This document shows, piece by piece, positions 6,842 through 25,658 of a stretch of DNA of 64,000 bases (the first letter of the stretch is position 1; each line of letters opens with the position of its first letter). Position numbers and translations under genes: made by a program. This stretch comes from a virus. The DNA lies in IMG/VR virus record IMGVR_UViG_3300030060_002841, positions 14,246-78,245 of that record. One strand, written 5' to 3'. The notes beneath the pieces were generated by a model, which saw nothing but the letters and a program-made list of their open reading frames with translations, was not told where the DNA came from and did no database searches.

Positions 6842-6842
6842 T

Positions 6843-6968: not shown

Positions 6969-6971
6969 TAA

Positions 6972-6994
6972 TTTTTTGTATATTATATATATAG
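6972..6994 (+). promoter_or_regulatory. Putative phage promoter
   Basis: ttttttgTATATTATatatatag upstream of 7037. Confidence 0.6.
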
Positions 6995-7036
6995 AAACCA
7001 AATTGTTTTATTTATTAATTTTAAAAAATTTAAGTT

Positions 7037-8512: not shown

Positions 8513-8532
8513 TACTTAGTGTTCTTATACTT

Positions 8533-8565
8533 AAGAAGGGGTAGAGTAAATTCTACCCCTTTTTT
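8533..8565 (+). terminator. Rho-independent terminator
   Basis: AAGGGGTAGAG-taaa-TTCTACCCCTT followed by a T run. Confidence 0.85.
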
Positions 8566-8583
8566 ATTTCTATATAGTTAATA

Positions 8584-8606
8584 TTTTTTGTATATTATCT
8601 ATATAG
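8584..8606 (+). promoter_or_regulatory. Putative phage promoter
   Basis: ttttttgTATATTATctatatag upstream of 8629. Confidence 0.6.
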
Positions 8607-8628
8607 ATTTATATAAATAACAGATATA

Positions 8629-9180
8629 ATGGCCGCTGAACATATATTAAGCTTAGAAATTCCTTTAGTTGCAAACAAAAAAATATTTACTATTTCTGAT
8701 ACAAGTAGTTATGCAAGTGCTATGGGTGTTAATGATCCAGAGTTACTAATATTACCTCCTGGTTTTAGTTCTCCTGCATCAATCATGGTTGGTGCTGGTT
8801 TCAATATAAACTTTGATGCTTGTGATTTAGGATTACAAACTCAAAATTGTGATACACAACAAGATGATCTTCCTGATGGAATATATGTTGTTAGATATAG
8901 AGTACAACCACATGATAAAGCTTATGTTGAATATAATCATTTAAGAGTAAGTAATATTCTAGCTAAGTATTATGATAAGTTATGTCAGCTAGATATAACT
9001 CCTTGTGAACCTACATCTGATAAAAAGTTTATGATATCTGAATTAAAGTATGTTAGAACTATGATAGATGCAGCAATAGCAAAAGTAGAATATTGTCATA
9101 GTCCTATGGAAGGAATGAATCTATATAATTTTGCTTTAAAGAAATTAAATAAAATAACTTGTGATTCTTGTTGTAAATAA
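8629..9180 (+). CDS. Putative tail hub/structural protein
   Basis: 183 aa; Ig-like N-half (ISDTSSY...LPDGIYVVRY), helical C-half ending CDSCCK; position in the structural module. Confidence 0.5.
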   Translation: MAAEHILSLEIPLVANKKIFTISDTSSYASAMGVNDPELLILPPGFSSPASIMVGAGFNINFDACDLGLQTQNCDTQQDDLPDGIYVVRYRVQPHDKAYVEYNHLRVSNILAKYYDKLCQLDITPCEPTSDKKFMISELKYVRTMIDAAIAKVEYCHSPMEGMNLYNFALKKLNKITCDSCCK

Positions 9181-9182
9181 TA

Positions 9183-9362
9183 ATGGCTTCTACTGATCAA
9201 AATATAATAAAGAAAATAGAAATTAATCAAAAATTTGCTGATTACGTTTATAAAGATTTTTCTGCCAGAAGGTTTGGAATAACTTCTTGTTGTAGTTTGG
9301 ATCAATTAGAAAGTGCTATTATAAAAAAGGAACTGTGTGATTGGCAGGATCTCAAGGAGTAA
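9183..9362 (+). CDS. Small protein (59 aa) missed by the ORF track
   Basis: MASTDQNIIKKIEINQKFADYVYKDFSARRFGITSCCSLDQLESAIIKKELCDWQDLKE*; ATG 2 nt after the upstream stop, fills the gap on the coding strand, and has a CC motif like its neighbours. Confidence 0.75.
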   Translation: MASTDQNIIKKIEINQKFADYVYKDFSARRFGITSCCSLDQLESAIIKKELCDWQDLKE

Positions 9363-9367
9363 ACAAC

Positions 9368-9407
9368 TTGGTTGTTAATAAATAAAATTGTATATTATAG
9401 TATATAC
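9368..9407 (+). promoter_or_regulatory. Putative phage promoter with Bacteroidota-like spacing
   Basis: TTG (9368-9370), 20 nt, then TATATTAT (9391-9398), upstream of 9437. Confidence 0.6.
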
Positions 9408-9436
9408 TAAATTAAACTAGTTTAAAAGAAATAAGT

Positions 9437-12400: not shown

Positions 12401-13000
12401 CAAATGGCAACTGCATTATTAGGTAAGAATGTATTACTTGCAGAATATAATGGTATAAAAGCAGGAAAAATAAAATTCCCAGTAAATCTTAAACCTTATA
12501 TACTTGATGGAACTGCACCTGCTATACAACCTTATTCAGGCAATACATCAGCAGGAACAGCAATAGTTGGTTTAACAACTTTAAAATTTACTACAAACTT
12601 TACATTTGAACAAGATGATTCATTTAGTTCTAATATGATTTTAGATATAATTGGTAATGGACCAAATCTATTTAACAATGGTTATGTATTAGATTGTCCT
12701 CCAGCTGATGCGCCTTGTAAAGTTATGACAAGTGATACAGGATCTACTGTATGGCGTTATAGTGCTTCAGGTGCTTCACATGCTTGTAGTAGTCCTAGTG
12801 CAACAATAGAGATATGGAACTCAACAGGTAATGTATTTGGAACAGGACTTGCATTTAAAAATCAAGGAGGATGTTGTACAAATACAGCAGCTCAAGAAAT
12901 AGATACAGGATATTATGCAGCTGATACTGGAGCTTCAGGTAAAACAGTAGCTTTATATACAAAAACAGTAGGATGGAGTGGAACAACAACTTGTCCTTAA
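9437..13000 (+). CDS. Large Cys/Thr-rich virion appendage (fibre/receptor-binding-like) protein
   Basis: 1187 aa; N-terminal CTPISSNCVIWQGP module, coiled segment, FN3-like repeat (GLVAGQTYNV), Ig/cadherin-like repeat (PLYGTL..WTYT..DSFT), possible vWA-like domain (FVFVDTTS). Confidence 0.55.
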   Translation: MIPSNTGSNSNSGCTPISSNCVIWQGPNISCLDLCTGDTISVVIATLAEKICDIIQGAVNIEIGDIDGQCVVDDILNQNIDFENGGITAWIQGIINVLCSHGPHGGGGVDEDHDHPHEHDPVSLPVPKCIQSYLPGGTTTMPLTGVSIALQNGGNAAFLAALDGTPSDGVVTGWGELIGNAICYILDFCCHSSVLPDGMGGGGLSSGNVRGLASRVRKLEQQPATVYVPPKVTPKYVTNNVGKAQDMNVVLTALENEFGILRKATGLAGAIREAIKRQPIALNVEGRLNGTGTMSALPGWYTQPATLGESLSNLWLTTTDMRNAIKDLQKNSTKTHCSDIVFDYKASLVKSGGGTVTGIKLDFTGLSVPSTFSDIGTGSLITIKDASLNSKTTYLQTHTYQNTQDGYTIDIGNLSVTENYEITVDFAFSDGASECAKSVVVALANNVAFPTIAFSDQTTSSFRYTASGISTTAGYTVQIITESLTGGQVQVDTYSNPGASVTAVVKGLVAGQTYNVFSRLTGSGCSVANDSTKSSVSTLTATCTSVKVISADYKTATTDVRSGASVLSLLCYNDSVNTTYTVATFDDDNNPIVYKATTVLSGITCAPASGAQTVGGNAISIDPTYMLTCGSTVYPATGFSTTTPGGWRYVDTIQGPDAVSYYVYALYDETNKEIDEVVFCCDCSGLTAIPASEGDTIYCKTGGSRTTQLGLRGYTGGATSPTWTRVSEPLYGTLTYNSAQSTSTDGSWTYTNTQTDDTAWTGDSFTLRATNDCGTTADYIISVQKSEILPFRDTNMFVFVDTTSFTSTEGDAIKTQFEAAKTQLAINCPTWTGTIYYIPINGSNAGDYLKIPKALIDMHNGASGSVTVETHADWNSFKSLPPYWVAATKSDTPSSAVTWVFTNTTSLNGNYGNALLSDGTTFAPTSTYLADYEALQDIKNATTNSTWGGSNMPGFRQFGTTTAADFNYVQILVPKLTGSTNESAATVLQMATALLGKNVLLAEYNGIKAGKIKFPVNLKPYILDGTAPAIQPYSGNTSAGTAIVGLTTLKFTTNFTFEQDDSFSSNMILDIIGNGPNLFNNGYVLDCPPADAPCKVMTSDTGSTVWRYSASGASHACSSPSATIEIWNSTGNVFGTGLAFKNQGGCCTNTAAQEIDTGYYAADTGASGKTVALYTKTVGWSGTTTCP

Positions 13001-13018
13001 TAATTAAATAATAAAGAA

Positions 13019-13651
13019 ATGGCACATTGTAATAATTGCAAAACACATATAACACCAGCTGGTTGCGGATGTAACACAGGCAGTTTAAGTATATCTCCAG
13101 AATATCTTAATAGTGCTCATCATTGTGATCTTCCAACTGATTGTTGTGAAGATGTGCAATGTTTAGAATGTGTTACAGATTGTCAATTAAGTAATCAATA
13201 TTCAGTTGATTATGCTAATTCTACATTTAGTGTATTTAAAGGAGAATCATTAGATAGTATAGTGCAAAAATTAATGTTATGGAGTAATCCTACTAATCAA
13301 GCACTATGGAATTATATGGTTCCTTTATTTTATTTAAAAGGTGTTACTAGTACAAGTGTTACTTTAAGATGGGGTAATTTATTAATTAATCCTGATTCTG
13401 AAGATGGTAATCCTTATATTGAAACTATAACTGTTCAATATAAAAATGCAGAAGGTGATCCACCTATTGACTGGACTCTTGTAAATGCAGATGCTTTAGA
13501 TGCAGCAACAGTTTCAGAATTTACAGTTACAAATGTAATGGTTACATTAAATCCAGGATCAACATATAAGTTTAGATTAATGGCTAACTATGCTGGGGAT
13601 AATCAAGATTCTGCATCAGTTGATTTATATGTGACAATACCTACAGAATAG
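13019..13651 (+). CDS. Cys-rich FN3-domain structural protein
   Basis: Cys-rich N-terminus; C-terminal FN3 signature (VTSTSVTLRW...LNPGSTYKFRL). Confidence 0.6.
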   Translation: MAHCNNCKTHITPAGCGCNTGSLSISPEYLNSAHHCDLPTDCCEDVQCLECVTDCQLSNQYSVDYANSTFSVFKGESLDSIVQKLMLWSNPTNQALWNYMVPLFYLKGVTSTSVTLRWGNLLINPDSEDGNPYIETITVQYKNAEGDPPIDWTLVNADALDAATVSEFTVTNVMVTLNPGSTYKFRLMANYAGDNQDSASVDLYVTIPTE

Positions 13652-13697
13652 CGAGAAGTGGAGGTTTTTTGTTGGTTTTAACTCTACCACACGCTTT

Positions 13698-13731
13698 GAA
13701 CCCTAGATATCAATCTGGGGTTCTTTTTTTT
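13698..13731 (+). terminator. Rho-independent terminator
   Basis: GAACCCTAGAT-atca-ATCTGGGGTTC (one G-U) followed by T8. Confidence 0.85.
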
Positions 13732-13739
13732 ATTAACAA

Positions 13740-13756
13740 TTTTTTATATATTAGCA
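13740..13756 (+). promoter_or_regulatory. Putative promoter (variant TATATTAG)
   Basis: ttttttaTATATTAGca between the terminator and ATG 13780. Confidence 0.45.
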
Positions 13757-13779
13757 ACACTAATTAATATAGCTATCTT

Positions 13780-14988
13780 ATGAATTTAAAACAAAAAGTG
13801 AAAAATGCACTTAAATGGAAAAAAAATACAGAGTATTGCGCAGAAAGATTAGGGATAACAGAAGAAGAGTTTGACAAAATAAAAAAAGAAATATATGCAG
13901 AAGAAAGAGAAAAAAGAAAAGAAGAAAGAGACATGGGATATGTTACAGATGATTGTACATCATCATATGACATTGAAAAAGGTCAAGGAAAAGTTACTGG
14001 AATATCACATACAGAACCTAAATCAGCAGAAGAAATTATACAACTATTAAATATTGATACAACAAAATGGAAGTTGTCACAATATTGGAATAAACAAATG
14101 TCAGATCACTGGCGAATATCAGCACTAATAACAAAGCTTAAAAATGATGATACAGCTCATATAGAGCAATTACTTGAGAATTGGCAACCTAAAACTTTTA
14201 AACCAGTTAAAAGAATTAAAAGCTCAAGTAAGAAAGATGTTTGTGCTATACTATCATTACAAGATATTCATTTTGGTAAGCAAGGTAATGAAACCATAGA
14301 TAAAGATTTTGAAGAAACTATTATGGATCTTGTAGAAAGAGCACACTCAGGTCATAACTTAAAAAAGATATTTTATATTGTAGGAGGTGATTTAATGAAT
14401 ATGGATACATGGGCAGGTACTACTACTAGTGGAACTCCATTAGATAATTGCTCAACAGCTACAGATGCATATATACAAGCTTTTAATGCTTTACATTGGA
14501 GTATTAATTTTATAAAACAATATTGTGATCAATTGCAAGTTGTATATATACCAGGTAATCATGATAGATTATCTTCATTTCATTTAGCCCATGCTTTATC
14601 TAAATCTATAAATGACTCTAATATACTTTGGGATACTACATATCTTGAAAGAAAAGTATATACTTGGGGTGATAACTTTTTTGCATTTGAACACGGAGAT
14701 GTAAATACTAAAAATTCACTTTTACTTTATGCTACGGAGTTTGCACAACAATGGGGTACTACAGCAAATAGAACTTTATTTACAGGTCATTTACATCATA
14801 AAAAGAAAGTAGAATATATAACTACAAATGAACGTACAGGTTTTATGTTAAAGATATTACCAAGCCTTTCTAGAACAGACTATTGGCACTATCATAACAA
14901 ATTTGTTGGATCTAAACGTTCAGGTGTTATAGAACTTCATGATTACACTAAAGGTAATATATGTGAATTAACATATTCACCAGATTAA
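13780..14988 (+). CDS. Calcineurin-like metallophosphoesterase with N-terminal HTH-like segment
   Basis: All five metallophos motifs are present: DIHFG, GGDL, PGNHD, EHGD, TGHLH; N-terminal CAERLGITEEEF is helix-turn-helix-like. Confidence 0.85.
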   Translation: MNLKQKVKNALKWKKNTEYCAERLGITEEEFDKIKKEIYAEEREKRKEERDMGYVTDDCTSSYDIEKGQGKVTGISHTEPKSAEEIIQLLNIDTTKWKLSQYWNKQMSDHWRISALITKLKNDDTAHIEQLLENWQPKTFKPVKRIKSSSKKDVCAILSLQDIHFGKQGNETIDKDFEETIMDLVERAHSGHNLKKIFYIVGGDLMNMDTWAGTTTSGTPLDNCSTATDAYIQAFNALHWSINFIKQYCDQLQVVYIPGNHDRLSSFHLAHALSKSINDSNILWDTTYLERKVYTWGDNFFAFEHGDVNTKNSLLLYATEFAQQWGTTANRTLFTGHLHHKKKVEYITTNERTGFMLKILPSLSRTDYWHYHNKFVGSKRSGVIELHDYTKGNICELTYSPD

Positions 14989-15020
14989 TCTATCTGTTAT
15001 AAAACTTTTATTAATCCTCT

Positions 15021-15045
15021 TTTTTTTGTAAATTATAATGTATAG
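15021..15045 (+). promoter_or_regulatory. Putative promoter (variant TAAATTAT)
   Basis: tttttttgTAAATTATaatgtatag; if real, the next gene more likely starts at ATG 15050. Confidence 0.45.
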
Positions 15046-15571
15046 TAATATGATAAGTAATTTTAAAGCTCCAGATTTAAACAAACCTAGATACAGAGAA
15101 AAAACTTTAAGTTTATTAAATGTGGATCTTATTAATGATTTTAAAGAAAAGTATCCTATATATAGAAATATAGATAATACAAAACTTAAAAATATTATTA
15201 AGTTATATAATGAGAAACTTTGGAAAGAGGTAATTAATAATAGGAATGGTGTAGAATTACCAGATTCTTTAGGTTATTTATTTATTGGTACTTGTCCATC
15301 TTCTAAAAGTGTTAATACAAATTATGCACTTTCAAAACAGTATGGTAAAGTATTACAAAATAAAAATTGGGAAACTGACGGGAAGATTGCTAAAATATTT
15401 TATACAAACTATTCTACTAAATATAGATTTAGGAATAGAGAATTATGGCAGTTTACTGCAGTTAGACAATTTAAAAGATCTGTAGCTCAAGAGTATCCGA
15501 AACAATGGAATAAGTACATTATTATGGAGAACAAAAAGAGAGTAGCAGAGATGTATAAAAATAAAAAATAA
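15038..15571 (+). CDS. IHF/HU-like DNA-binding protein (divergent)
   Basis: Basic 177 aa; helix-helix then GVELPDSLGYLFI (HU/IHF 'V.L.GFG.F'-like) and C-terminal FTAVRQFKRSV; crAss-like phages encode IHF-like genes at this position. The start may be 15050. Confidence 0.6.
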   Translation: MYSNMISNFKAPDLNKPRYREKTLSLLNVDLINDFKEKYPIYRNIDNTKLKNIIKLYNEKLWKEVINNRNGVELPDSLGYLFIGTCPSSKSVNTNYALSKQYGKVLQNKNWETDGKIAKIFYTNYSTKYRFRNRELWQFTAVRQFKRSVAQEYPKQWNKYIIMENKKRVAEMYKNKK

Positions 15572-15576
15572 ATAAT

Positions 15577-16248
15577 ATGACAACCATAGGTGATGTTGTA
15601 TCTAGAGTTAGAAATCAAGTAAAAGCAGAAATAGAAGATGCTTTTGTAACTGATAGATATTTATATAGTTTAATTCTAAAGTCAGCACAGGTTTTAATGA
15701 GAAGACAAGACAATGCTAATAAACTAATGAAATTTAATAGCATCTGGCAAACACTACCCTATGTAGAATTAGAGGAAGTAGATAAAATAGAAGCAGGTTG
15801 TAGTGGCATGAAAAGTGGTTGTACTATAATGAGAAGTAAACTTAAACTTCCAATATTTATGGAAGGTTATTGGGGACCGTTGATTAGAACAGTATCTTCT
15901 ATAGATGGTTCTATAGAGCTTAGTCCCACACAACCTGGTACATATACTTCTATGTCAAAAACTACATCATTTAAATATAATAAGACAAAATATTTTTGGT
16001 GGTTAAATGGATATATGTATCTGCCTAATGTAGATTGGGAAGCAATAAAAGTTGAAGGTGTATTTGAAGGTGATATATCAAAATGGAATTGTGAGGAAGA
16101 AGACAACTGTATGCCTAGGTATAAACAACAGTTTTATGTACCAGAATTTTTATTTGCAGAAATAGAACAGCAAGTAATTCAACAATTAATGATGACACTG
16201 AAAGTTCCTTCAGAGGATTCAGATAACAAACAAAATGTAAATAGATAA
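15577..16248 (+). CDS. Tail ring / tubular protein
   Basis: 223 aa; N-terminal TIGDVVSRVR helix, YFWWLNGYMY strand, C-terminal helix; upstream of the muzzle. Confidence 0.6.
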   Translation: MTTIGDVVSRVRNQVKAEIEDAFVTDRYLYSLILKSAQVLMRRQDNANKLMKFNSIWQTLPYVELEEVDKIEAGCSGMKSGCTIMRSKLKLPIFMEGYWGPLIRTVSSIDGSIELSPTQPGTYTSMSKTTSFKYNKTKYFWWLNGYMYLPNVDWEAIKVEGVFEGDISKWNCEEEDNCMPRYKQQFYVPEFLFAEIEQQVIQQLMMTLKVPSEDSDNKQNVNR

Positions 16249-17141
16249 TGGGAGATAGTGTATCACATAAATATAGAACTTTTAATCAACTACTGGAGGA
16301 TGTAAGTATTGATTTCCGTACATATGCTTTAGAAGGTATGATAGAACCTCAGCAATTAATTAAAGTTGCAACTAGAGTTAATTATGATCTTGGATTAAAA
16401 ATACATAGAACAAAAGAAGAAGTTATAGATGTTGATCATTTTAAATCTAAACTTCCAGATGATTTTGCATATTTAAACTATGCATGGGTTTGTGGAGAAT
16501 ATAAAGTATCTAATACACCACCATCTGGTACACATGTAGATACTACACATAAACAATATGTACCAAATCCTGATGGAGGTGATATAGGACCTTGTGATGA
16601 TCCTACATGTAAAGATGTGTGTACTGTACAAAAATGTGATAATCAAGATGGATATATGGTTATACAGTATACAGGTGGAGAACAATATAGAACATTTACA
16701 GAGTTTTTTCCATTAAGAATAAAACATAATAATTCTGTAGTTTGTGATTGTCCTAATTTAAGTGTACAGTCAGCAGATATAGCACAAGTTAAAGATGGCT
16801 ATTTATTAACTAATTTTGAATGTGGTAAAATTTATTTAAGTTATCAAGGAGCTATGGAAGATACAGAAGGTAATCTATTGGTATTAGATCATCCTTATTG
16901 TAATGAGTATTATGAATATGCACTAAAACAAAGAATTCTTGAAAACATGTTATTTAATGGTGAGCAAGTTTCTCAACAATTAGGATTAATTGAGCAAAAG
17001 CTTAGAGCTGCTAGGAATACTGCATTAGGTTTTGTTAATACTGGTAACTTTAAAGATTTCCAAAAGATTTGGGAAACAAATAGAAAAGCACAGTATCATA
17101 ATTATTATAATATGTTTAAAAGTCATCCAACACTAAGATAA
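16248..17141 (+). CDS. Tail ring/tubular protein (P22 gp4-like adaptor family)
   Basis: 297 aa; KLPDDF and GYLLTNFECGKIYLSYQG motifs; directly upstream of the muzzle as in crAss-like phages. Confidence 0.6.
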   Translation: MGDSVSHKYRTFNQLLEDVSIDFRTYALEGMIEPQQLIKVATRVNYDLGLKIHRTKEEVIDVDHFKSKLPDDFAYLNYAWVCGEYKVSNTPPSGTHVDTTHKQYVPNPDGGDIGPCDDPTCKDVCTVQKCDNQDGYMVIQYTGGEQYRTFTEFFPLRIKHNNSVVCDCPNLSVQSADIAQVKDGYLLTNFECGKIYLSYQGAMEDTEGNLLVLDHPYCNEYYEYALKQRILENMLFNGEQVSQQLGLIEQKLRAARNTALGFVNTGNFKDFQKIWETNRKAQYHNYYNMFKSHPTLR

Positions 17142-17147
17142 AGTATT

Positions 17148-20100
17148 ATGTCAAATAAACAGAAAGGCCATATACCAAAGCCCCCACAGTTTCAAAATAC
17201 TTCTAATAAAGATACAAGGATCTTTGTTAAAGGTATGCAGAAAGATTTGGACCCTACTGTTTTAGGTAAAGATGTTTGGACACATTGTATAAATTGCATT
17301 AATAATACAAAAGCTGGTGATGCGGGTACAGTTTCTAATGAACAAGGAAATAAAATATGTGCAGAAATTCCTTACACTGTAATAGGTGGTATTCATTTAT
17401 ATGGTGATAAATGGGTTATATATTCTACAGATGATGAAGCAAGTGAGATAGGTTTATTTGATGATAGTCAATGTACTTATGAAGCTATTGTAAATGATCC
17501 ATGTTTAAGTTTTGATAAACGTTATTTAATTACAGGAGCGTCTAAAGAGAATTTTGATTGTTCTTGGCAAGTATATTGGGATGATGGTTTAAATCCTTCT
17601 AGAACGCTTAATTTGGATAATATACCATACATGCAGCAGGTAGCTAATGAAGGAGAAGATTGTGTAGAGTATGAAAACATATTACCATTACAATTAGATT
17701 GTGAAAGAATTAGATTAGCACCTTTAATTGAAACACCAACCGTAGTATTAGAAAAATCTAAAACAGGTGGTAAACTTCCTAATGGTTCTTATCAAGCATT
17801 TATTGCTTATGCTGTAAATGAAAATAAAATTGGAGATTATTATACTTCTAATGTTCAAGCACTATTTGATCATGAGAGTCCATCTTCTGCTTTAAATATT
17901 AAACTTACAAATTTAGATACAAGATTTGAAGGTTTTAGATTAGTTATACTTTCAAATAATCAAGGTGTTCAAAAAGCTAAAGATATTGGGTATTATAGTA
18001 CAGAGCAAGATTTTATTACTATAGGTAACTTAGAAGATATTGGTATAACTGTACCAAAAGAACGTTTGCCAGAATATAACCCTGTTATAGAGAGATCTGA
18101 TAAGATGTTTGTAGTAAATGAATATTTAGTTAGAACAGGTCCTAGAGAAAATTTTAATTTTAATTATCAATGTTTAGCAAATAAAATAAAAACACGTTGG
18201 GTTTCTGTAGAATATCCTGCAGATTATTATAGACAAGGAGGTCATAATCCTACGTTTATGAGAGATGAGCAGTATGCATTTTTTATACGTTGGATATATA
18301 ATACAGGTGATAAATCAAGATCTTATCATATACCCGGACGTGAAGCTACAGAAGATGATCTTGTAGGTCCTCCAGCAAGTGAGGTATTGAATGCATATAC
18401 AGAAGATAGTTATTGGCAAGTTGCTAATACGGCTTATTACAATGCTGCACTTGATGTTGGTGGTATAGTATATGATGGTGGTATAGTTAGAGCAAAAGGT
18501 CAAATGGGATATTGGGAGTCTACAGAGTTATATCCCAATGATCCTGTTAGATGGTGTGATTTATGTAGTAAACCAATAAGACATCATAAAATGCCTGATG
18601 AGCAAACTATGATAAACCAACCGGAAAATTATACTGCAAGAAGTTCTGCAGATAATAAAAGAATATATGTTCTTGGTGTAGAGTTTGGTAATATTGCATG
18701 GCCTGTTGACAATGATGGTTTACCTATTCCTAATATTGTAGGTTATGAGATATTAACAGGAGACAGAACTGGATCAGAATCTATTGTATCAAAAGGTCTG
18801 ATAAGGAACATGCAAAAATACAGAATACCTGATAATGAAAGTAAGTCTGGTAAAACATCAGAATCACAAAGTGTAGAATCAGCTTTAGGAGTTCAAGGTT
18901 TATTTCCAAACTATCCTTATAATGATTTAGGAACAGATCCATATTTAAGTCAAACTGAAGTAGTAAAAGATAAAGATTTTGTTGGAATTAATGATTATTC
19001 TCATAAAATATTTACTTATCATTCTCCTGATACATCTTTTAATAGACCTTTTTTAGGAGCTCAGGAAATAAAACTATATGGACCAACAACTGGTTTTTCT
19101 CTTGGAAGATTTCAAACTTCTGAAGATCATCCTGGTCATAAGTTAATAAGAAATATTGGTGCTATTATAGCTCTTGTTATTGGGGCAGGTTATGCAATAA
19201 TGGAAATGCGTGGCCGTAAGAAGCAGATAATGAGAAATGCTACAGCTCTTTCTATTGGTCAAAATCCAGGTCCTTATGCTGATACAACATTTGATACAGA
19301 AGATAAATATGATCTTAACACTTCAAGTAGTTCTCTTAATCTTGGTCCTTTTGGTGGAGCTATTGGAGGCTCATCTACTTCTGGTGTTGTAGATACTACT
19401 GGTGAAACAACAGAAGACGTAGCAACAGATGGATCAGGAAATGCATTAGATGGTGCAGCTCCTGGTGCAGCTGCAGGTTCAGTTGCAGCAGATAATGCAG
19501 CAGCAAATGCACAAGCAATGGAAGATGGACAATCAAATGTTGAACAATCAGATGGTATTAGCATACCTCCAGCTCCTAATGTAAGTGCAGAACAGTTTCA
19601 AAATGTTTCTACTACTGGTGTTGTTATACCTGGTACTACACAAGATACAACAGATGATGTAAATACTGCAATGAATCCTGTAATATCTTCTGCAATAAAT
19701 GTTGATGGTAGTATACAAGCAGATCAAACAGCACAAGAAGAAGTTATTAAAAAAGTACCAGGTCATATTGGTCCTCAAAAACAAGTAGAATTTGAAGATA
19801 GTAGATATAAATCTTCACCTGGATTTATAGGTCAGGTATTTAAAATAATGTCATTTTTAAATTTAATGACTACAGGAGGTCAAGAAATTATTGACTTGAT
19901 ATATGAATTAATGAGTTTTCAAAATTATGCATTAAAATTTAACTCATATGGTTTATATGGAAATGAAGTACCAGTTGTTGGTAGATCAAGACATAGTTTA
20001 GTTCAAGCTAGATATTTAGCAAATAGTTTTCAAAACATGTCTGTAGGTGGTCAAAATTTTAGAATAAATAACTTACAAAGACCTAGAACTGTAGTAATTA

Positions 20101-23100
20101 ATAGTGAAACTAATTTACCAAATTTATCAGTAGCTGCTGTTTTACCTAACAATCTTCAAGATAATAGTAAATTTATTTTAAGTCAAATAGGTGATGCTTG
20201 GGTATCTAGTAATTTTACTGCTCCTATATCAAGTAGAATTGCAGCTCACTATGTTGGTTTAAAAGTAGATAATCCTAATCAATATGGTAAACTAGATGGT
20301 ATAAGGCAAGTTCCTTCAGGAAGACCTTTTATTCTTAAAAAAACAGATGAAGCTCTTACTGATGATGTAGCAGAAAAAATATATGAAACAGGAAAAATTA
20401 AAAAAGATGATACAACAGAAGTAATATTTGGAGGTGATTCTTATATTGCTAGATATAGTGAGAAAGTTATTATGCCTTTCTTTTGGGACTTTTTAATGGG
20501 CCAACCAGATGGTTACAACTTTAATTATTTTTATCATCAAAATGTACCTTATGTAAGATTTTGGTATAATAGTGATAGATATAATTTATCAGGTATAGTA
20601 CAACCAATTACATCTTTATCATTTACTTGGGCTAATGATCCTTCTAATGCTGGTGTACCTTCTGCGTTACATAATTTAGATAGAAACCAACTTACTGATC
20701 TTAGTGAAGATAATACAGCAACTGAAGATGATCCATTTGGTGGTGCACCTGCTTTTGGTGGTGGAACTACATATGATGGTCCACCTGCTGGTGATGGTTT
20801 ATTTACAATCAAACACCGTTACATGTACACTCATTGTAATGGTGCAAATGACTTTTTTGTAGAGACAAAAATAAATGTAGGTTATAGAGATTGGAGAGAT
20901 GAATTAGGTAAGAGACATTATGATACAGATGAGTTTGCAGATCTAACAGAATTATTTCATGCAAAAATAATAAAGAATGGAAACTTTTTTAGATATGATA
21001 ATTCACTACAAAAGGATCAAATGTTTACACAAAACATTTCTTATGGTTTTATACAGGATCCTACATATGATCCATTTATAGCAGAAGAATGCTGGGTTCA
21101 TTATCCTAAGAGACTTATATATTCAAGGCAAGCAATGCTTGATGCTACACAAGACATGTGGAGAATTTTCTTGCCACAAGATTATGTAGATTTTAAAAAT
21201 TCTATTAATACAATTAAACCTATTAATAAGACAGGAGCAATGATATTATTTCCACATTTAGCTCCAGTTATGTGGTCAGGTATAAATACTTTACAAGCTG
21301 GTCAAAGAGATATTATTTTAGGTGATGGAGGTCTATTTAATCAAAGACCTCAAAATGTAGTTAATGCTGATCTACCACATGAATATGGATCTTGTGAAAG
21401 TTCACGTAGTGCAATTAATACACCATCTGGTTTATATTTTATATCTCAGCAACAAGGTAAGATATTTCAATATACAAAAGGTTTAGTAAATATTGCTGAG
21501 CAAGGAATGAAGCAATGGTTTAATAAATATTTACCATCTAGACTATTAGCTGCATTTCCTGATATGGAAAATCACGTAGATGTTGATAATCCTATTGCAG
21601 GTGTAGGCTGTCAGTCTGTGTATGATCCTAATTATGATTTAGTATATTTTTGTAAAAAAGATTATGAAGTTATTAATGATGAGTGTTTAGAATATGATCC
21701 AGACACAGGAGTTGTTGTAAATGAAACAGAATGTTATGATGTAGAACCTATCTTATCATGTCCACCTGATTATGAATTAATAGATGGTGAATGTTGTATA
21801 GATATAGTTAGAGATCCTATTTGGACTTGTACTACTGTAAATTCAACACAAGAAGATCTTACTGTTATAAATCCTAATTTTGAAATTGATGAACAACCTC
21901 CTGGTCAGATAGGTACATTATCAGTAGCTTCAGGTCTTACTCCTGGTCCATGGGTCCAATGTAAAAGGGGTCCTGGAGTTGGTAATTATAATCCAAGTGG
22001 TTTGGGTACAGGTAATTCAGTTATTGATGCTCCTCCTTGCTTTCCGACCGCTACGCCAACCAATCAGCAAACACCAGATACATTACCTTTTGAAGATTGT
22101 AGTATTGGATTTCCTTTACCGGGTGACTCTGGATGGCTGCCAGCTTATCAAGGTAAAACTTATATTGGGATGACAATCCAAACAAATGGGATTGGACAGG
22201 TTACTACTTGGGGTCCTAATTATAATACATGGCAAGAAGGAGTATCACAAGAATTAAGTAGTCCAATGACAGTTGGGACTACTTATCAAATGACTTTAGC
22301 TCTTACTCAGGGGTGGGAAGACCAAACACCTGATATAGTTGTTAGTATATGGGGAGGATCAGATCAATGTCCTTGTGAAGATAATGGACCTATGTCTTCT
22401 ACTTATCTAGGATATGATAATAATACTCATAATAGTGAAATATTATGGACATCACCTGCATTGACACAATCTCCTCCACAATGGACTCTATATACTGCAA
22501 CATTTACACCTACAAGTCCACATTCTCATATACATTTTAGAGTAGGAAGACTTAGCGGTGGTCTCCATATGACACTTCCTTCTACTACTACTAATGGTTA
22601 TGTGTATATGGATGGTATAAGTACAATACAATCTACAACTGAAGTTCGTAAAACTTGTGAATGTCCTGAAGGAACTGATATGTATTGGACTGGCACAGAT
22701 ACACCAGCTACTGAAGAGGATTGTATAAACTGTATTAGCGGTGGATATAATGTTGATGAACCGTGTGTTTTTGCAGGATGTGTAGAATGTAGATTTGCAG
22801 AATGTATTCCGCCAGATGAAGAAGATGTGGTAACACCTATTGATTTAGATAATGAAGAATTTTTTAAGGATATATCTTGGACGGTAAGTTATGATCCTAA
22901 AATAAAAGCTTGGGTATCTTTCCATGACTGGCATCCAGAACTTACATTTCCAAGTTTAAATCATTTTTTAACTACAAAAACAAAACAGTTAGAAGTTCCA
23001 TATTGTCCACCTCCATACATATATAACCCAGAAACAGGGATGTGTGAAAATTATGAGTGTCCTGAAGGTTCAGTATATCAAGATGGTCAGTGTTGTACAG

Positions 23101-25658
23101 AAGATAGACAGGATGTTGATACTATACGTTGTGATGAACATGATAATGATTGGCCTGTAGATCCATCAGAAGCTATAACTTCTTTAGAAAGTGTTAGAAC
23201 GCGGCTTATAAATAATCAAAAATTAGATTTACTTACAAGATCAGATAATAGTAAATTAACTAAGGCTATAAATATAACACGTGATGAAAATGACATGGTA
23301 TATATTAAAATGGATCAATCTTTATATTCAAATATAAAAGATTTAAGACCTATTAAATTTAATATAGACCTACCTTTCTTGGATAATAAAACATTGTCTT
23401 TATCATATGAATATGCTAATAATAAAAAGAGAGGTCTTAAGTTACTTAGAAATACAGAAGATGGTATTATAGAAGAAAAATATGTACCAAAAGTACGTAC
23501 ATATAAATTAGTTGACAAAGAATATTCAGGGTTTTTAATGTTCTTAGAATCAAAAGACATACTGTATGGAATACTAAAAAAAGATGATAAAGTATATGAG
23601 TTTATACATTTAGAAGGTGATACTTATGGTATATATGATACACAAAAATCAATACATGACATGCCTTCTTTTGAATGTGCTAATGATAAGGATGCTGTTA
23701 ATGGTGTTATGGCTGCAGTTAAAAGTCAAAGATCTGGAAACTTAAGAATGAATGATGAGTTTTGTATTAATCTTGGTGTAGATGTAGATTATTTTACATA
23801 TTTAGATTTTGATCAAAATACATTTGCTGTTGCAGATTGGATTCAAACTATTATTGATTATACAAATGATGTATATTCAAATGATTTAAATTGTACAGTA
23901 GAAGTAACTGTTTTACATATTTGGGAACAAACAATTTATGATGTAGCTGGTTCGACAACAGCTGGTGGAGTTATTACAGACTATGGTGATTTTGCAGAGT
24001 ATAATTTTATTGCAGAAGGATTTTATGCTGGTCCACCTCATTGCGCAGATTATAATGTACAATGTCTTATAAATTGGAATGGTATTCCAGAATTAGCTGC
24101 AGAGTTAGTACCTGGGTTAAATTCAGTTGATATGCTTCATATGATAACTAGGAAACAAATAGGAGGTGGTATAGCTCATGGTATAGGGGGTTATTGTGAA
24201 TTAGAAAATAATATGGTTGATAATGAATTTATGTCAGGTGGTGCTAAATCAGTTGCAGTAAGTGGTAGTTTAATTCCACAGTTTCCTTCATTTGAATATG
24301 GGCAAGAAATAACAGGGGACAATATGGGTGGTTGGATATATCAAGCAGTAATTGTACCTCACGAAATGGGTCATGTTGTAGGTGCTTATCATTCACATAA
24401 TTGCTTTGCATATAATGCTGATCCAACTTATAATTATGCAGGAGGCGCTTTAGATAATTGTGTAATCACTGGTGAATCAGGACCTTGTAATGCTGGTAAT
24501 GGAGTTTGTCCTCCAGATAATAATACAACATTTTATAATACTAATTTAGGCTTTGGTACATTAATGAGTTATTGTCATGTTGGTAATGGTTGTAATGGTG
24601 ATGTTGCTGTTCAATTACAGTTCCATCCAGTTGTAAAAGAACAAAGAATAATACCTTTATTAGAAGATCATGCTACTCCAGAGTGTTCTGCGTGTGTACC
24701 ACCTCTTGGAGGATGTACTGATCCACTAGCAGAAAATTATAATCCTAATGCCACGTTTGATGATGGTTCATGTACGTATAGAGAAATTTGTGGATGTAAA
24801 TGTGATACTGGATATACAATGGTTTATGCTGGTACTACTAATCCAATACCTGAAGCAATATGTATTCAGTATGGTGGAACAAATACTGAATGTATATTAG
24901 TTGATTGTGAAGAATCACCATATGAACCTTTTCCACCTTCATATGAATTAGGGGGTATTTGGAGACATAATGATAGATGTGATTTATATACAAACTATTA
25001 TAATGAACAATATGGTTGGGAAATAGAATTTGTAGAATCACAAGGTCAAGTTGTAAATACATTAAGAAATGTAGAATATGAAATGGAAGCTTGGTTATAT
25101 AAAACTCCTGAAGATACTAATGGTAATCCTTTAGAAGGTTATTCAAGTTGTGAAAATAAATATCATGAATTAGATTTTAACTTTAATAAAGCTATTATTT
25201 ATAATACAGAACAAGTATCAGGTTTATTAAATTTAGTTTTAGCACAAAAAAATAATGCTTGGTTTAATAATCAATTTCCAAATACAAATGGTGCAGTTTA
25301 TAATATACTGTATAAAAAAGAAGAGCAGAAGTTTAGATTTAATCAATTTTGGGATACAACAAGAAATAGAGGTGAGATAGTATTTCCAAATGGTGACTTT
25401 GATAGTAATATATTTACAGTTAAGGAACCAATATGGCATACTGAATTAGATGGATATACAAGACAACTTAATCCACAAAATTTAAATTACTTTAAAGATC
25501 CATTAGAAAGAAAAAAGTTCAGACATTATTGGAACAAAATATTATTAAGAAGAGAGCCGCTATCAATGATAGGACCTGCTGGCCCAATGTTAGAACCAGA
25601 AACAAGGAACATGATATTTAAAGTAGAAAACTCAAATATTAATTTATCATTTAGGTAA
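17148..25658 (+). CDS. Muzzle / tail stabilization protein with two large payload insertions
   Basis: 2836 aa; beta-propeller-like N-terminus, F.RDEQYAFFIRW, YHSPD, FGGDSYI, HEYGSCES and WTVSYDPK..WVSFHDWHP motifs as recalled for crAss muzzle / P22 gp10-like proteins; position after the ring genes. Confidence 0.75.
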   Translation: MSNKQKGHIPKPPQFQNTSNKDTRIFVKGMQKDLDPTVLGKDVWTHCINCINNTKAGDAGTVSNEQGNKICAEIPYTVIGGIHLYGDKWVIYSTDDEASEIGLFDDSQCTYEAIVNDPCLSFDKRYLITGASKENFDCSWQVYWDDGLNPSRTLNLDNIPYMQQVANEGEDCVEYENILPLQLDCERIRLAPLIETPTVVLEKSKTGGKLPNGSYQAFIAYAVNENKIGDYYTSNVQALFDHESPSSALNIKLTNLDTRFEGFRLVILSNNQGVQKAKDIGYYSTEQDFITIGNLEDIGITVPKERLPEYNPVIERSDKMFVVNEYLVRTGPRENFNFNYQCLANKIKTRWVSVEYPADYYRQGGHNPTFMRDEQYAFFIRWIYNTGDKSRSYHIPGREATEDDLVGPPASEVLNAYTEDSYWQVANTAYYNAALDVGGIVYDGGIVRAKGQMGYWESTELYPNDPVRWCDLCSKPIRHHKMPDEQTMINQPENYTARSSADNKRIYVLGVEFGNIAWPVDNDGLPIPNIVGYEILTGDRTGSESIVSKGLIRNMQKYRIPDNESKSGKTSESQSVESALGVQGLFPNYPYNDLGTDPYLSQTEVVKDKDFVGINDYSHKIFTYHSPDTSFNRPFLGAQEIKLYGPTTGFSLGRFQTSEDHPGHKLIRNIGAIIALVIGAGYAIMEMRGRKKQIMRNATALSIGQNPGPYADTTFDTEDKYDLNTSSSSLNLGPFGGAIGGSSTSGVVDTTGETTEDVATDGSGNALDGAAPGAAAGSVAADNAAANAQAMEDGQSNVEQSDGISIPPAPNVSAEQFQNVSTTGVVIPGTTQDTTDDVNTAMNPVISSAINVDGSIQADQTAQEEVIKKVPGHIGPQKQVEFEDSRYKSSPGFIGQVFKIMSFLNLMTTGGQEIIDLIYELMSFQNYALKFNSYGLYGNEVPVVGRSRHSLVQARYLANSFQNMSVGGQNFRINNLQRPRTVVINSETNLPNLSVAAVLPNNLQDNSKFILSQIGDAWVSSNFTAPISSRIAAHYVGLKVDNPNQYGKLDGIRQVPSGRPFILKKTDEALTDDVAEKIYETGKIKKDDTTEVIFGGDSYIARYSEKVIMPFFWDFLMGQPDGYNFNYFYHQNVPYVRFWYNSDRYNLSGIVQPITSLSFTWANDPSNAGVPSALHNLDRNQLTDLSEDNTATEDDPFGGAPAFGGGTTYDGPPAGDGLFTIKHRYMYTHCNGANDFFVETKINVGYRDWRDELGKRHYDTDEFADLTELFHAKIIKNGNFFRYDNSLQKDQMFTQNISYGFIQDPTYDPFIAEECWVHYPKRLIYSRQAMLDATQDMWRIFLPQDYVDFKNSINTIKPINKTGAMILFPHLAPVMWSGINTLQAGQRDIILGDGGLFNQRPQNVVNADLPHEYGSCESSRSAINTPSGLYFISQQQGKIFQYTKGLVNIAEQGMKQWFNKYLPSRLLAAFPDMENHVDVDNPIAGVGCQSVYDPNYDLVYFCKKDYEVINDECLEYDPDTGVVVNETECYDVEPILSCPPDYELIDGECCIDIVRDPIWTCTTVNSTQEDLTVINPNFEIDEQPPGQIGTLSVASGLTPGPWVQCKRGPGVGNYNPSGLGTGNSVIDAPPCFPTATPTNQQTPDTLPFEDCSIGFPLPGDSGWLPAYQGKTYIGMTIQTNGIGQVTTWGPNYNTWQEGVSQELSSPMTVGTTYQMTLALTQGWEDQTPDIVVSIWGGSDQCPCEDNGPMSSTYLGYDNNTHNSEILWTSPALTQSPPQWTLYTATFTPTSPHSHIHFRVGRLSGGLHMTLPSTTTNGYVYMDGISTIQSTTEVRKTCECPEGTDMYWTGTDTPATEEDCINCISGGYNVDEPCVFAGCVECRFAECIPPDEEDVVTPIDLDNEEFFKDISWTVSYDPKIKAWVSFHDWHPELTFPSLNHFLTTKTKQLEVPYCPPPYIYNPETGMCENYECPEGSVYQDGQCCTEDRQDVDTIRCDEHDNDWPVDPSEAITSLESVRTRLINNQKLDLLTRSDNSKLTKAINITRDENDMVYIKMDQSLYSNIKDLRPIKFNIDLPFLDNKTLSLSYEYANNKKRGLKLLRNTEDGIIEEKYVPKVRTYKLVDKEYSGFLMFLESKDILYGILKKDDKVYEFIHLEGDTYGIYDTQKSIHDMPSFECANDKDAVNGVMAAVKSQRSGNLRMNDEFCINLGVDVDYFTYLDFDQNTFAVADWIQTIIDYTNDVYSNDLNCTVEVTVLHIWEQTIYDVAGSTTAGGVITDYGDFAEYNFIAEGFYAGPPHCADYNVQCLINWNGIPELAAELVPGLNSVDMLHMITRKQIGGGIAHGIGGYCELENNMVDNEFMSGGAKSVAVSGSLIPQFPSFEYGQEITGDNMGGWIYQAVIVPHEMGHVVGAYHSHNCFAYNADPTYNYAGGALDNCVITGESGPCNAGNGVCPPDNNTTFYNTNLGFGTLMSYCHVGNGCNGDVAVQLQFHPVVKEQRIIPLLEDHATPECSACVPPLGGCTDPLAENYNPNATFDDGSCTYREICGCKCDTGYTMVYAGTTNPIPEAICIQYGGTNTECILVDCEESPYEPFPPSYELGGIWRHNDRCDLYTNYYNEQYGWEIEFVESQGQVVNTLRNVEYEMEAWLYKTPEDTNGNPLEGYSSCENKYHELDFNFNKAIIYNTEQVSGLLNLVLAQKNNAWFNNQFPNTNGAVYNILYKKEEQKFRFNQFWDTTRNRGEIVFPNGDFDSNIFTVKEPIWHTELDGYTRQLNPQNLNYFKDPLERKKFRHYWNKILLRREPLSMIGPAGPMLEPETRNMIFKVENSNINLSFR
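21850..22640 (+). other. Inserted galactose-binding-like jelly-roll domain inside muzzle
   Basis: NPNFE...W...TPD...GKTYIGM...EGVSQELSSPMTVGTTY...WTLYTATFTP...YVYMDGI; this pattern resembles carbohydrate-binding-like domains of Bacteroidota secreted proteins. Confidence 0.6.
23150..24780 (+). other. Inserted M12B/reprolysin-like zinc metalloprotease (pro + catalytic + GCTD repeat) inside muzzle
   Basis: HEMGHVVGAYH (HExxHxxGxxH) at 24360-24392; Met-turn GTLMSYCH at about 24555-24578; putative cysteine switch SFECAND; C-terminal GCTDPLAENYNPNATFDDGSC repeat. Confidence 0.85.

What the first reader, a model, noticed from the sequence alone, without database searches (positions are those of the whole stretch)
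21759..24908. Modular stalk-and-payload display cassettes in the muzzle: one split Cys scaffold frames two different host-like domains
Seen: two insertions interrupt the muzzle and share homologous flanks. Left arms: CPPDYELIDGECCIDIVRDPIWTC (21759-21830) and CPEGSVYQDGQCCTEDRQDVDTIRC (23058-23132), consensus CPx6DGxCCx5Dx4-5C. Right arms: CECPEGTDMYWTGTDTPATEEDCI..GG..VECRFAEC (22656-22805) and CKCDTGYTMVYAGTTNPIPEAICI..GG..TECILVDC (24795-24908), consensus CxCxxGxxMxxxGTxxPxxExxCI...ECx4C. Between the arms sit unrelated payloads: a ~270-aa jelly-roll sugar-binding-like domain and a ~550-aa M12B protease. The two cassettes are separated by only a short stretch of core muzzle (WTVSYDPK...HFLTT). 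Inference: the arms pair into a disulfide-locked out-and-back stalk that displays an exchangeable domain at the tail tip, a plug-in system for capturing host surface-protein domains. I do not know of this being described.
Basis: partly seen in the sequence, partly recalled or inferred. Interest (0 to 1): 0.85.

Follow-up and report, generated by a model that had tools for sequence, protein, structure and literature searches.

The report
Swappable domain cassettes in phage muzzle
The tail-end "muzzle" protein of this uncultured marine crAss-like phage has two loops where related phages swap folded domains in and out (here a sugar-binding-like module and a metalloprotease), each held between small cysteine-rich entry and exit pieces, so it looks like an exchangeable host-contact kit.

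Summary
The four "arms" are at the stated coordinates in one 2836-aa Crassvirales muzzle ORF (17148-25658). The right arms are clearly homologous (0/2000 shuffles); the left arms less clearly (4-11/2000).

Comparison of 79 distinct related muzzles shows that the same two sites, 48 conserved residues apart, are independent insertion hot spots:
- Each site can be empty, hold arms only, or carry a payload.
- Payloads are vWA, CBM-like jelly roll, M12B metzincin, or one of at least 5 unnamed domain clusters.
- CBM-like and M12B payloads occur at both sites.
- Close sisters (83-94% nt identity in the core) carry different cassettes.
- The vWA payload was precisely deleted twice, leaving the arms.

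Exchangeable cassettes are therefore well supported. Left-right arm pairing through disulfides has only indirect or weak support: Cys parity (3 left, 5 right), an ESMFold2 arm-arm score of 0.32 against 0.01 for controls, a confident all-beta model of an arms-only insert, and weak covariation.

The sites appear to lie in C-terminal beta-propeller loops of the muzzle, not in the distal "crass" domain, so "tail tip" is approximate. "Host capture" is only loosely supported.

The scan found the same architecture before on other DNA (e1-6076155, e1-5970675). I rate it a new variant of a known kind, modular phage host-contact proteins.

The parts
17148..25658 (+). Muzzle protein ORF, 2836 aa (P0001)
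   Evidence: Pfam crAss_MUZ scores 82.6 bits against a 27-bit cut-off at aa 21-267. The ORF follows the CrAss_Ring_2 and CrAss_Ring_1 genes, and a Crass_capsid gene lies upstream.
21672..22838 (+). Site-1 insert (cassette 1), aa 1509-1897. The equivalent loop in insert-free muzzles is 22-49 aa.
   Evidence: Anchor mapping on 79 relatives.
21684..21734 (+). Core-proximal Cys-stapled hairpin at the site-1 entry, aa 1513-1529 (C...YDPDTG...C)
   Evidence: It aligns with the hairpin present in short muzzles and with CIxFDPxxGFVxNxTxC in long ones.
21759..21830 (+). Left arm 1, aa 1538-1561 (CPx..GxCC unit)
   Evidence: 'CC' is invariant in 13/13 CBM/M12B-type cassettes.
21846..22649 (+). Payload 1: CBM-like beta-jelly roll, aa ~1567-1834
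   Evidence: The AF2 model m007e05eb1c5e has mean pLDDT 62.6, with core strands at 80-92. Foldseek and VIA hit CBM4/16/22, MAM, gingipain adhesin and HpiC1, Z 10-12 over model residues 68-335. The Atlas neighbours are Bacteroidota hypothetical or CBM-cenC clusters.
22656..22805 (+). Right arm 1, aa 1837-1886 (CxCPEG...P...C...C...C plus an extra Cys-rich extension)
22839..22982 (+). Conserved core between the two sites, aa 1898-1945 (propeller strands WTVSYDPK...HFLTTK)
   Evidence: 55-73% identical to insert-free muzzles. It lies within the beta-propeller-like part of the L074 model.
22983..24953 (+). Site-2 insert (cassette 2), aa 1946-2602. The equivalent loop in insert-free muzzles is 1-10 aa.
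23004..23045 (+). Left arm 2, unit a, aa 1953-1966 (CPPxYxYNPxTGxC). This unit is conserved at the entry of nearly all site-2 inserts.
23058..23132 (+). Left arm 2, unit b, aa 1971-1995 (CPEG...GQCC)
23133..23762 (+). N-terminal, prodomain-like part of payload 2, aa 1996-2205. Its function was not tested.
   Evidence: Conserved with L036, L041, L039 and L044. No Pfam hit.
23763..24593 (+). M12B reprolysin-like metzincin catalytic domain, aa ~2206-2482. HEMGHVVGAYH is at 24360-24392 and the Met-turn LMSY at 24561-24575.
   Evidence: Pfam Reprolysin_5 26.6 bits and Reprolysin_3 21.4 bits, both just below cut-off. Homologous payloads in L036 (57.9 bits), L039 (46.3) and L041 (39.9) are above cut-off. 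Atlas score 0.97 to a Bacteroidota M12B cluster. HExxHxxGxxH is kept in all 5 M12B payloads.
24714..24773 (+). Small two-Cys motif CTDPxAxNYNPxAxxDDGSC between the protease and the right arm, aa 2523-2542
   Evidence: The same motif occurs twice in the marine protein P0008.
24795..24908 (+). Right arm 2, aa 2550-2587 (CxCxxGYxMVYAG..P...C...C....C)
   Evidence: Five Cys are invariant in 13/13 arms.

Best explanation
The gene encodes the tail muzzle protein of an uncultured marine crAss-like podophage; its host is probably a member of the Flavobacteriia/Bacteroidota.

Two surface loops, 48 residues apart in the C-terminal beta-propeller part of the protein, are insertion hot spots. In this phage each loop holds a cassette with three parts:
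- an outgoing limb of one or two Cys-stapled CPxG(Y/F)...C hairpins, ending in 'CC';
- a folded payload;
- a returning limb that starts with CxCxxG and carries three more conserved Cys.

Payload 1 is a CBM-like jelly roll, probably a glycan or surface binder. Payload 2 is an M12B metzincin with an intact zinc site, probably a protease acting on a host surface layer or protein.

Six copies of each payload would ring the hexameric muzzle and make or clear the first contacts with the cell envelope.

Across the lineage the cassettes behave as modules:
- Whole inserts are replaced or moved between the two sites by recombination, with breakpoints in the conserved core.
- Payloads can be deleted, leaving an arms-only stalk.

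Shown: the hot spots, the common frame, payload diversity, exchange and loss.

Inferred: that the limbs pack side by side and are clasped by at least one left-right disulfide at the payload base, that the payloads are exposed, and their biochemical roles.
For: Identity and context:
- crAss_MUZ, ring and capsid Pfam hits.
- The model of a relative's C-terminal 697 aa matches phicrAss001 gp44 residues 1066-1371 (Foldseek E 1e-7; VIA Z 10.3, 259 aligned but rmsd 16 A) and T7 gp12 propeller residues 358-554 (Z 7.3, rmsd 3.7 A).

Hot spots:
- In 79 distinct muzzles, site 1 is 22-49 aa or 85-1788 aa, and site 2 is 1-10 aa or 51-816 aa. All four combinations of empty and filled occur.

Payload types:
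- vWA with DxSxS.
- CBM-like.
- M12B above the Pfam cut-off in L036, L039, L041 and L044.
- At least 5 unnamed clusters.
- CBM-like payloads occur at site 1 (window, L013, L041) and at site 2 (L009, L010, L011, L013).
- M12B occurs at site 2 (window, L036, L041) and at site 1 (L039, L044).

Exchange:
- On a core tree, at least 12 (site 1) and at least 20 (site 2) state changes are needed.
- Sisters L011 and L041 are 83-94% nt identical in the core but have non-alignable cassettes. L011's site-2 CBM matches L041's site-1 CBM at 66-79% nt identity.
- There are two independent, precise vWA deletions, with junctions 'ICNC' and 'CLC', in genes 85-91% nt identical to vWA-bearing sisters. They leave 138-141-aa arms-only inserts.

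Frame:
- 13/13 CBM/M12B cassettes have 'CC' immediately before the payload and 'CxC' immediately after it.
- Conserved Cys are three in the last left unit (CC invariant, its CP Cys in at least 90% of arms) and five invariant in the right arm. If all are oxidised, at least one bond must be left-right.
- In vWA cassettes, the Cys just before and just after the payload are lost together with it.

Arm pairing:
- ESMFold2 with the two arms of cassette 2 as separate chains scored ipSAE 0.32; the best of 3 controls scored 0.01.
- That mark was reached by 58 of 80 solved complexes and 2 of 110 mismatched pairs. At 0.60 or under it was reached by only 7 of those 80 and by both mismatches, so this is a weak pass.
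- The runs agree in at least 93% of contacts, and partner pLDDT is at least 71. My own alignments were used.
- The arms-only insert of L074 models as all-beta with pLDDT about 84.
- The top MI-APC pair and 8 long-range pairs link the first left strands to the last right strands (patch clustering P about 0.02, Neff about 30).

Disulfide plausibility:
- External tail proteins in this window have 1.5-4.8% Cys, whereas cargo and RNAP proteins have 0-0.4%.
- phicrAss001 tail parts are disulfide-stabilised (PMC10172136).

Protease integrity:
- HExxHxxGxxH is kept in five payloads that are only 22-28% identical to one another.
Against: - No coordinates or contact maps could be read, so arm pairing and disulfide topology are not shown.
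- The arm-arm prediction is only a weak pass.
- In the cassette-1 model the arms have pLDDT of only 48-71.
- Total Cys counts of many inserts are odd (52 of 95), so not every Cys can be in an intra-insert disulfide.
- vWA-type stalks have even Cys counts in each limb, so the parity argument does not extend to them.
- Arm similarity (about 30-34%) tracks neither site nor payload. This gives no direct proof that payloads were swapped inside a fixed pair of arms.
- The clearest recent swap carried the arms along with the payload.
- vWA payloads form largely site-specific lineages.
- Placement in the propeller rests on a model of a relative and on a global alignment with poor rmsd. The direction in which the inserts point is unknown.
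- The window's M12B Pfam score is just below the cut-off.
- No function has been tested.
Confidence: 0.72

Rival explanations
1. The arms are ordinary tandem EGF-like or CPxGY mini-modules. Each is closed by its own disulfides and acts as a flexible spacer on either side of inserted domains. There is no specific left-right scaffold; the limbs run side by side only because both ends of an insert must return to the same loop.
For: - The number of left units varies from 1 to 3.
- There are weak, sub-threshold Pfam hits of arm segments to cEGF, CC and CBM_14.
- The CxCxxG(Y/F) pattern resembles the EGF signature; this rests on my own knowledge of the PROSITE EGF patterns.
- The arm-arm prediction is only a weak pass.
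- vWA-type limbs have even Cys counts.
Against: - The conserved Cys counts are odd, 3 on the left and 5 on the right, in all 13 CBM/M12B cassettes.
- Arms-only inserts are retained after payload loss and model as one confident beta structure.
- Long-range covariation links the first and last strands.
- Controls in the arm-arm prediction scored 0.00-0.01.
Confidence: 0.22
2. The similarity of the two cassettes in this gene is only an internal duplication followed by divergence. The payload differences among relatives reflect slow vertical divergence and loss rather than exchange.
For: - The two vWA payload families are largely site-specific (12 at site 1; 52 of 53 at site 2), as expected for vertical descent.
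- Arm identity is uniformly low.
Against: - Sister genes 83-94% nt identical in the core carry unrelated cassettes at both sites, and a CBM module 66-79% nt identical sits at different sites in the two.
- A tight clade (L013, L036, L044) has CBM/CBM, other/M12B and M12B/vWA.
- M12B and CBM payloads occur at both sites.
Confidence: 0.04
3. The inserts are assembly artefacts or selfish elements (inteins, homing elements) and are not part of the mature protein.
For: None found. The only basis is the large size and the patchy distribution.
Against: - The ORF is uninterrupted.
- A contig from an independent metagenome is 95-99% identical across the region (L001). Independent fragments are 87-88% identical (P0002, P0003).
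- No intein or endonuclease families were hit.
- The payloads are adhesin or enzyme folds with conserved active-site motifs.
Confidence: 0.02

Closest known systems
Muzzle protein gp44 of Bacteroides phage phicrAss001 (PDB 7QOK/7QOL; Pfam PF25731; Bayfield et al. 2023, PMC10172136)
   Same: - Same protein family and gene position.
- N-terminal Pfam match.
- The C-terminal propeller part of a relative's model aligns to gp44 residues 1066-1371.
- The paper notes that muzzle length varies through insertions that can change surface properties.
   Different: - gp44 is about 1360 residues with no such cassettes. The paper places its insertions in the crass and IG2 domains.
- Here two specific loops, apparently in the C-terminal propeller part, carry Cys-framed modules with vWA, CBM-like, M12B or unnamed payloads.
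- Sequence identity is too low for HMM detection in the PDB.
Integrin alpha-I domain (a vWA domain inserted in a loop of the alpha-subunit beta-propeller), and the nested PSI/hybrid/beta-I domains of integrin beta with a long-range disulfide (from my own knowledge, not tested here)
   Same: - A vWA or other domain with adjacent N and C termini is plugged into a beta-propeller loop.
- A split, disulfide-linked frame surrounds an inserted domain.
- The role is adhesion.
   Different: - No homology is claimed.
- Here the payload is exchangeable among relatives and sits on a Cys-rich hairpin stalk.
- The window itself carries no vWA domain.
Modular exchange of receptor-binding or depolymerase domains in phage tail fibres and tailspikes (conserved N-terminal adapter plus a swappable distal domain; e.g. 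PMC12692247, PMC9603124)
   Same: - Host-contact modules are swapped by recombination at conserved junctions.
- Enzymatic and binding payloads are both used.
   Different: - There the exchange is at a chain end, on separate fibre proteins.
- Here domains are nested inside loops of the central gatekeeper protein, at two sites, between an outgoing and a returning limb. An 'empty socket' form exists.
EGF-like / cEGF modules (PF12662 and relatives)
   Same: Small disulfide-stapled beta hairpins, with CxCxxG(Y/F) followed by a closing Cys.
   Different: - Only sub-threshold hits were found (17-19 bits against a 26.6-bit cut-off).
- The 'CC' spacing is not that of EGF.
- The putative module would be split by a payload of hundreds of residues.

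Membership tests
Crassvirales muzzle protein (PF25731) | Match to the family profile above its curated cut-off | tested here: met
   82.6 bits against 27, aa 21-267.
Crassvirales muzzle protein (PF25731) | Gene position after the tail ring genes in a crassvirus structural block | tested here: met
   CrAss_Ring_2 (15577-16248) and CrAss_Ring_1 (16248-17141) lie directly upstream, and Crass_capsid is at 2824-4443.
Crassvirales muzzle protein (PF25731) | C-terminal beta-propeller fold like gp44 and the T7 nozzle | tested here: met
   Tested on relative L074, not on the window protein. gp44 1066-1371: Z 10.3, 259 aligned, rmsd 16 A. T7 gp12: Z 7.3, rmsd 3.7 A.
M12B reprolysin-like metzincin (payload 2) | HExxHxxGxxH zinc site and a Met-turn | tested here: met
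   HEMGHVVGAYH at aa 2405-2415 and LMSY at aa 2472. The motif is kept in all five M12B payloads.
M12B reprolysin-like metzincin (payload 2) | Pfam Reprolysin_* match above cut-off | tested here: inconclusive
   Window: Reprolysin_5 26.6 against 27, Reprolysin_3 21.4 against 22.4. Homologous payloads in L036 (57.9), L039 (46.3), L041 (39.9) and L044 (28.2) pass and align to the window payload at E 1e-54 to 1e-58.
M12B reprolysin-like metzincin (payload 2) | Proteolytic activity; zymogen with a removable prodomain | not testable with these tools
   The region aa 1996-2205 is conserved among M12B cassettes but unassigned.
CBM4/16/22-like (galactose-binding-like) jelly roll (payload 1) | Beta-jelly-roll fold | tested here: met
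   Z 10-12 over model residues 68-335, rmsd 2.7-4.2 A. Foldseek E about 2e-5. Mean pLDDT of the model is only 62.6.
CBM4/16/22-like (galactose-binding-like) jelly roll (payload 1) | Carbohydrate binding | not testable with these tools
   No Pfam CBM match. The same fold also serves as an adhesin (gingipain), MAM domain or cyclase (HpiC1).
EGF-like domain (arms) | Six-Cys pattern and profile match | tested here: inconclusive
   Only sub-threshold cEGF, CC and CBM_14 hits on arm segments of relatives, and none in the window.
   13/13 CBM/M12B cassettes have CC...payload...CxC. Nearly all inserts have a CPxG entry and a CxC exit. Arms-only forms exist.
   Weak pass at 0.32 against 0.01 for controls; parity inference; weak covariation. 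No coordinates were available.

The most novel reading that the evidence does not exclude
The Cys-rich arms form a universal, self-folding 'socket' on the crassvirus muzzle propeller. It tolerates any domain with adjacent termini, so marine crAss-like phages re-tool their first host contact (adhesin, lectin, protease) by plug-in exchange at two sockets. This would be a natural nested-domain display platform, distinct from end-on fibre swapping, and usable for phage engineering.
Probability: 0.4. Interest if true: 0.75.

Novelty: new variant of a known kind. Interest (0 to 1): 0.62.

Why it matters
Crassviruses are among the most abundant phages, and how they recognise hosts is poorly understood. 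The muzzle was described as a conserved gatekeeper.

This result shows that in a marine branch the gatekeeper itself carries two sockets with interchangeable adhesin, lectin-like and protease modules. The modules include 'empty' and multi-domain forms (up to 1788 aa), and swaps have occurred between near-identical cores.

That gives:
- a concrete, testable handle on host-range evolution in uncultured crAss-like phages;
- a possible natural scaffold for displaying foreign domains in a phage tail protein;
- a rare case of a metzincin built into a virion tail.

Tried and rejected
- PDB sequence searches found nothing, either with the whole protein or with a profile of 8 short muzzles. gp44 could be reached only by fold.
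- Mapping the C-terminal half onto the Pfam crAss_MUZ profile failed.
- The word-based homologue search with the M12B payload returned only one 88%-identical fragment.
- The exhaustive HMMER search with cassette 1 returned 14 proteins, mostly muzzle fragments. No close cellular donor of either payload was found.
Alignment was needed.
- Self-BLAST of the protein showed no internal repeat at default sensitivity.
- Arm identity was compared by site and by payload to ask whether arms travel with payloads. The result was uninformative, about 30-34% in every class.
- Structure prediction returns no coordinates, so inter-arm contacts could not be read from either model.
- Two Atlas calls failed on length and were re-sent by reference.
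- Literature searches for Crassvirales with vWA, for muzzle insertions, and for a tail metalloprotease found nothing specific.
Full report
**What is there**

The finding lies in a single 2836-aa ORF (17148-25658, +).
- Its N-terminus matches Pfam crAss_MUZ (82.6 bits).
- It follows the crassvirus ring-2 and ring-1 genes, and a crassvirus capsid gene lies upstream.
- The nearest deposited phages are Cellulophaga phi17:2/phi4:1 and the Flavobacterium FpV phages, at no more than 26% identity.
- Related contigs and proteins come from aquatic or marine metagenomes, including TARA.
- The phage is therefore an uncultured marine crAss-like podophage.

**The observation**

All four arm peptides are in frame at the stated coordinates.
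- Against 2000 shuffles, the right arms score z 7.4-7.7 (0/2000) and the left arms z 3.4-4.1 (4-11/2000). Left-versus-right controls are at chance.
- The arm motifs occur only at these four places in the muzzle. The only other matches among the window's large ORFs are two loose single hits in the 1821-aa protein.

**Two insertion hot spots**

I collected 96 related loci from IMG/VR, giving 79 distinct muzzle proteins. Three conserved anchors were mapped on each.
- The shortest muzzles (about 1680-1850 aa) have 26-46 aa at site 1 and 1-10 aa at site 2.
- In the window these positions hold 389 aa and 657 aa. They are separated by 48 residues that are 55-73% identical to the insert-free proteins.
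- All four combinations occur: none/none, none/insert (the commonest), insert/small, and both. Site 1 reaches 1788 aa in L039.

**Payloads**

- Most relatives carry vWA domains with a DxSxS motif.
- A second group carries the window's payload-1 domain. It models as a CBM4/16/22-, MAM- or gingipain-adhesin-like jelly roll.
- A third group carries an M12B metzincin, above the Pfam cut-off in L036, L039, L041 and L044. These payloads align to the window's at E 1e-54 to 1e-58.
- At least five further clusters have no Pfam name.
- CBM-like and M12B payloads each occur at both sites.
- The HExxHxxGxxH site is intact in all five M12B payloads, although they are only 22-28% identical to one another. 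This argues for an active enzyme.
- The window's own Pfam score is just under the cut-off (26.6 against 27).

**Exchange**

- On a tree of the core alone (78 rows, quick LG+G4), payload states need at least 12 changes at site 1 and at least 20 at site 2.
- Sisters L011 and L041 are 83%, 88% and 94% nt identical in the three core segments, yet their inserts cannot be aligned in place.
- L011's site-2 CBM module matches L041's site-1 module at 66-79% nt identity. Whole inserts, arms included, are therefore replaced or moved, with breakpoints at the core junctions.
- Separately, L074/L075 and L069 lost the vWA domain by two independent precise deletions, with junctions ICNC and CLC. Their genes are 85-91% nt identical to vWA-bearing sisters. 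The deletions leave 138-141-aa arms-only inserts. L079 has a third arms-only form, with CPPGY..GECC and CECPDGY.

**The frame**

- Nearly every insert begins with a CPxG hairpin and ends with a segment containing CxC.
- In all 13 CBM/M12B-type cassettes, the payload is preceded directly by 'CC' and followed directly by 'CxC'.
- The last left unit has three conserved Cys, and the right arm has five invariant Cys (A4, A5). If all are oxidised and none bonds into the payload, at least one disulfide must join left and right. This is an inference.
- In vWA cassettes, the Cys just before and just after the vWA domain disappear together with it, as expected for a clasp across the payload base. The vWA limbs otherwise have even Cys counts.

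**Other indications of pairing**

- ESMFold2, given the two arms of cassette 2 as separate chains, scored 0.32; the best of three controls scored 0.01.
  - That mark was reached by 58 of 80 solved complexes and 2 of 110 mismatches. At 0.60 or under it was reached by only 7 of the 80 and by both mismatches, so the pass is weak.
  - The runs agree in at least 93% of contacts, and partner pLDDT is at least 71. My own alignments were used.
- The arms-only insert of L074 is predicted as all-beta with pLDDT about 84, inside a model whose flanks are much poorer.
- MI-APC on 38 stalks (Neff about 30) puts a left-right pair first. It groups 8 long-range pairs between the first left strands and the last right strands (clustering P about 0.02).
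- No tool returned coordinates, so the disulfide topology is not shown.
- Disulfides are plausible here. Outer tail proteins in this window have 1.5-4.8% Cys and cargo proteins 0-0.4%. The phicrAss001 tail is disulfide-stabilised (PMC10172136).

**Position in the muzzle**

- The L074 model's residues 127-694 align to gp44 residues 1066-1371 (Z 10.3, but rmsd 16 A).
- Residues about 112-345 align to many beta-propellers, including the T7 nozzle (Z 7.3, rmsd 3.7 A).
- Bayfield et al. place IG2 and the crass domain at gp44 residues 318-1021. The two sites therefore appear to be loops of the C-terminal propeller blades, not the distal crass domain.
- This location is not mentioned in that paper's sentence on insertions. 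The direction in which the stalks point is unknown, so 'at the tail tip' is only approximate.

**Host-like origin**

- The nearest Atlas clusters for both payloads are Bacteroidota proteins: 0.97 for M12B and 0.91-0.94 for the jelly roll.
- Free-standing homologues of payload 1 (26-35% identity) carry a signal-peptide-like start or sub-threshold SprB, PKD or MAM hits.
- No close donor exists in 1.8 billion representatives or in the word-based search. Capture from hosts is plausible but old or indirect.

**Known and new**

- Swapping of host-contact modules in phage tail proteins is a well-known theme, and PMC10172136 notes muzzle length variation by insertions.
- I found no description of the following in the searchable literature:
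  - the two defined sockets in the propeller part;
  - the shared Cys-rich entry and exit frame;
  - the arms-only state;
  - the payload catalogue, including a metzincin;
  - the documented swaps.
- The scan itself had already noted and followed up the same architecture on other genomes, with the same conclusions.

**Verdict**

Modular exchange is well supported. The paired, disulfide-locked stalk is plausible but unproven. I rate it a new variant of a known kind.

Noticed in passing
window 24714-24773: A 20-residue two-Cys motif, CTDPxAxNYNPxAxxDDGSC, sits between the protease and the right arm. Near-copies occur twice in an unrelated marine (TARA) protein, P0008, next to payload-1-like domains. 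It has no Pfam family.
   Followed up: partly
window 5954-17141 versus 25658-63303: There is a sharp Cys dichotomy. Outer tail and structural ORFs have 1.5-4.8% Cys, while cargo, RNAP and large internal proteins have 0-0.4%. This fits disulfide stabilisation of exposed virion parts only.
   Followed up: partly
window ~19220-19790 (muzzle aa ~692-880): A Gly/Ala/Ser/Thr-rich, low-complexity stretch inside the muzzle does not align with relatives (BLAST gaps at q692-871). It is a further variable region, unrelated to the two cassettes.
   Followed up: no
L027 aa ~1403-1749 (locus L027): This muzzle has no insert at sites 1 or 2, but carries about 345 extra residues at a third position, equivalent to window aa ~1381. 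This may be a third insertion hot spot.
   Followed up: no
L037 and L039 (IMGVR_UViG_3300030098_004828, 245,646 bp): One contig holds two different muzzle genes about 130 kb apart. One is 2728 aa (vWA/CBM). The other is 4217 aa, with a 1788-aa site-1 insert containing an M12B and several CBM-like domains. The contig is either two crass-like genomes joined in assembly or an unusually large genome.
   Followed up: no
window 23133-23762: About 210 residues between the left arm and the M12B catalytic domain are conserved among all M12B cassettes but match no family. This could be a prodomain. The same stretch is the subject of another first-reader note (e1-6088524).
   Followed up: no
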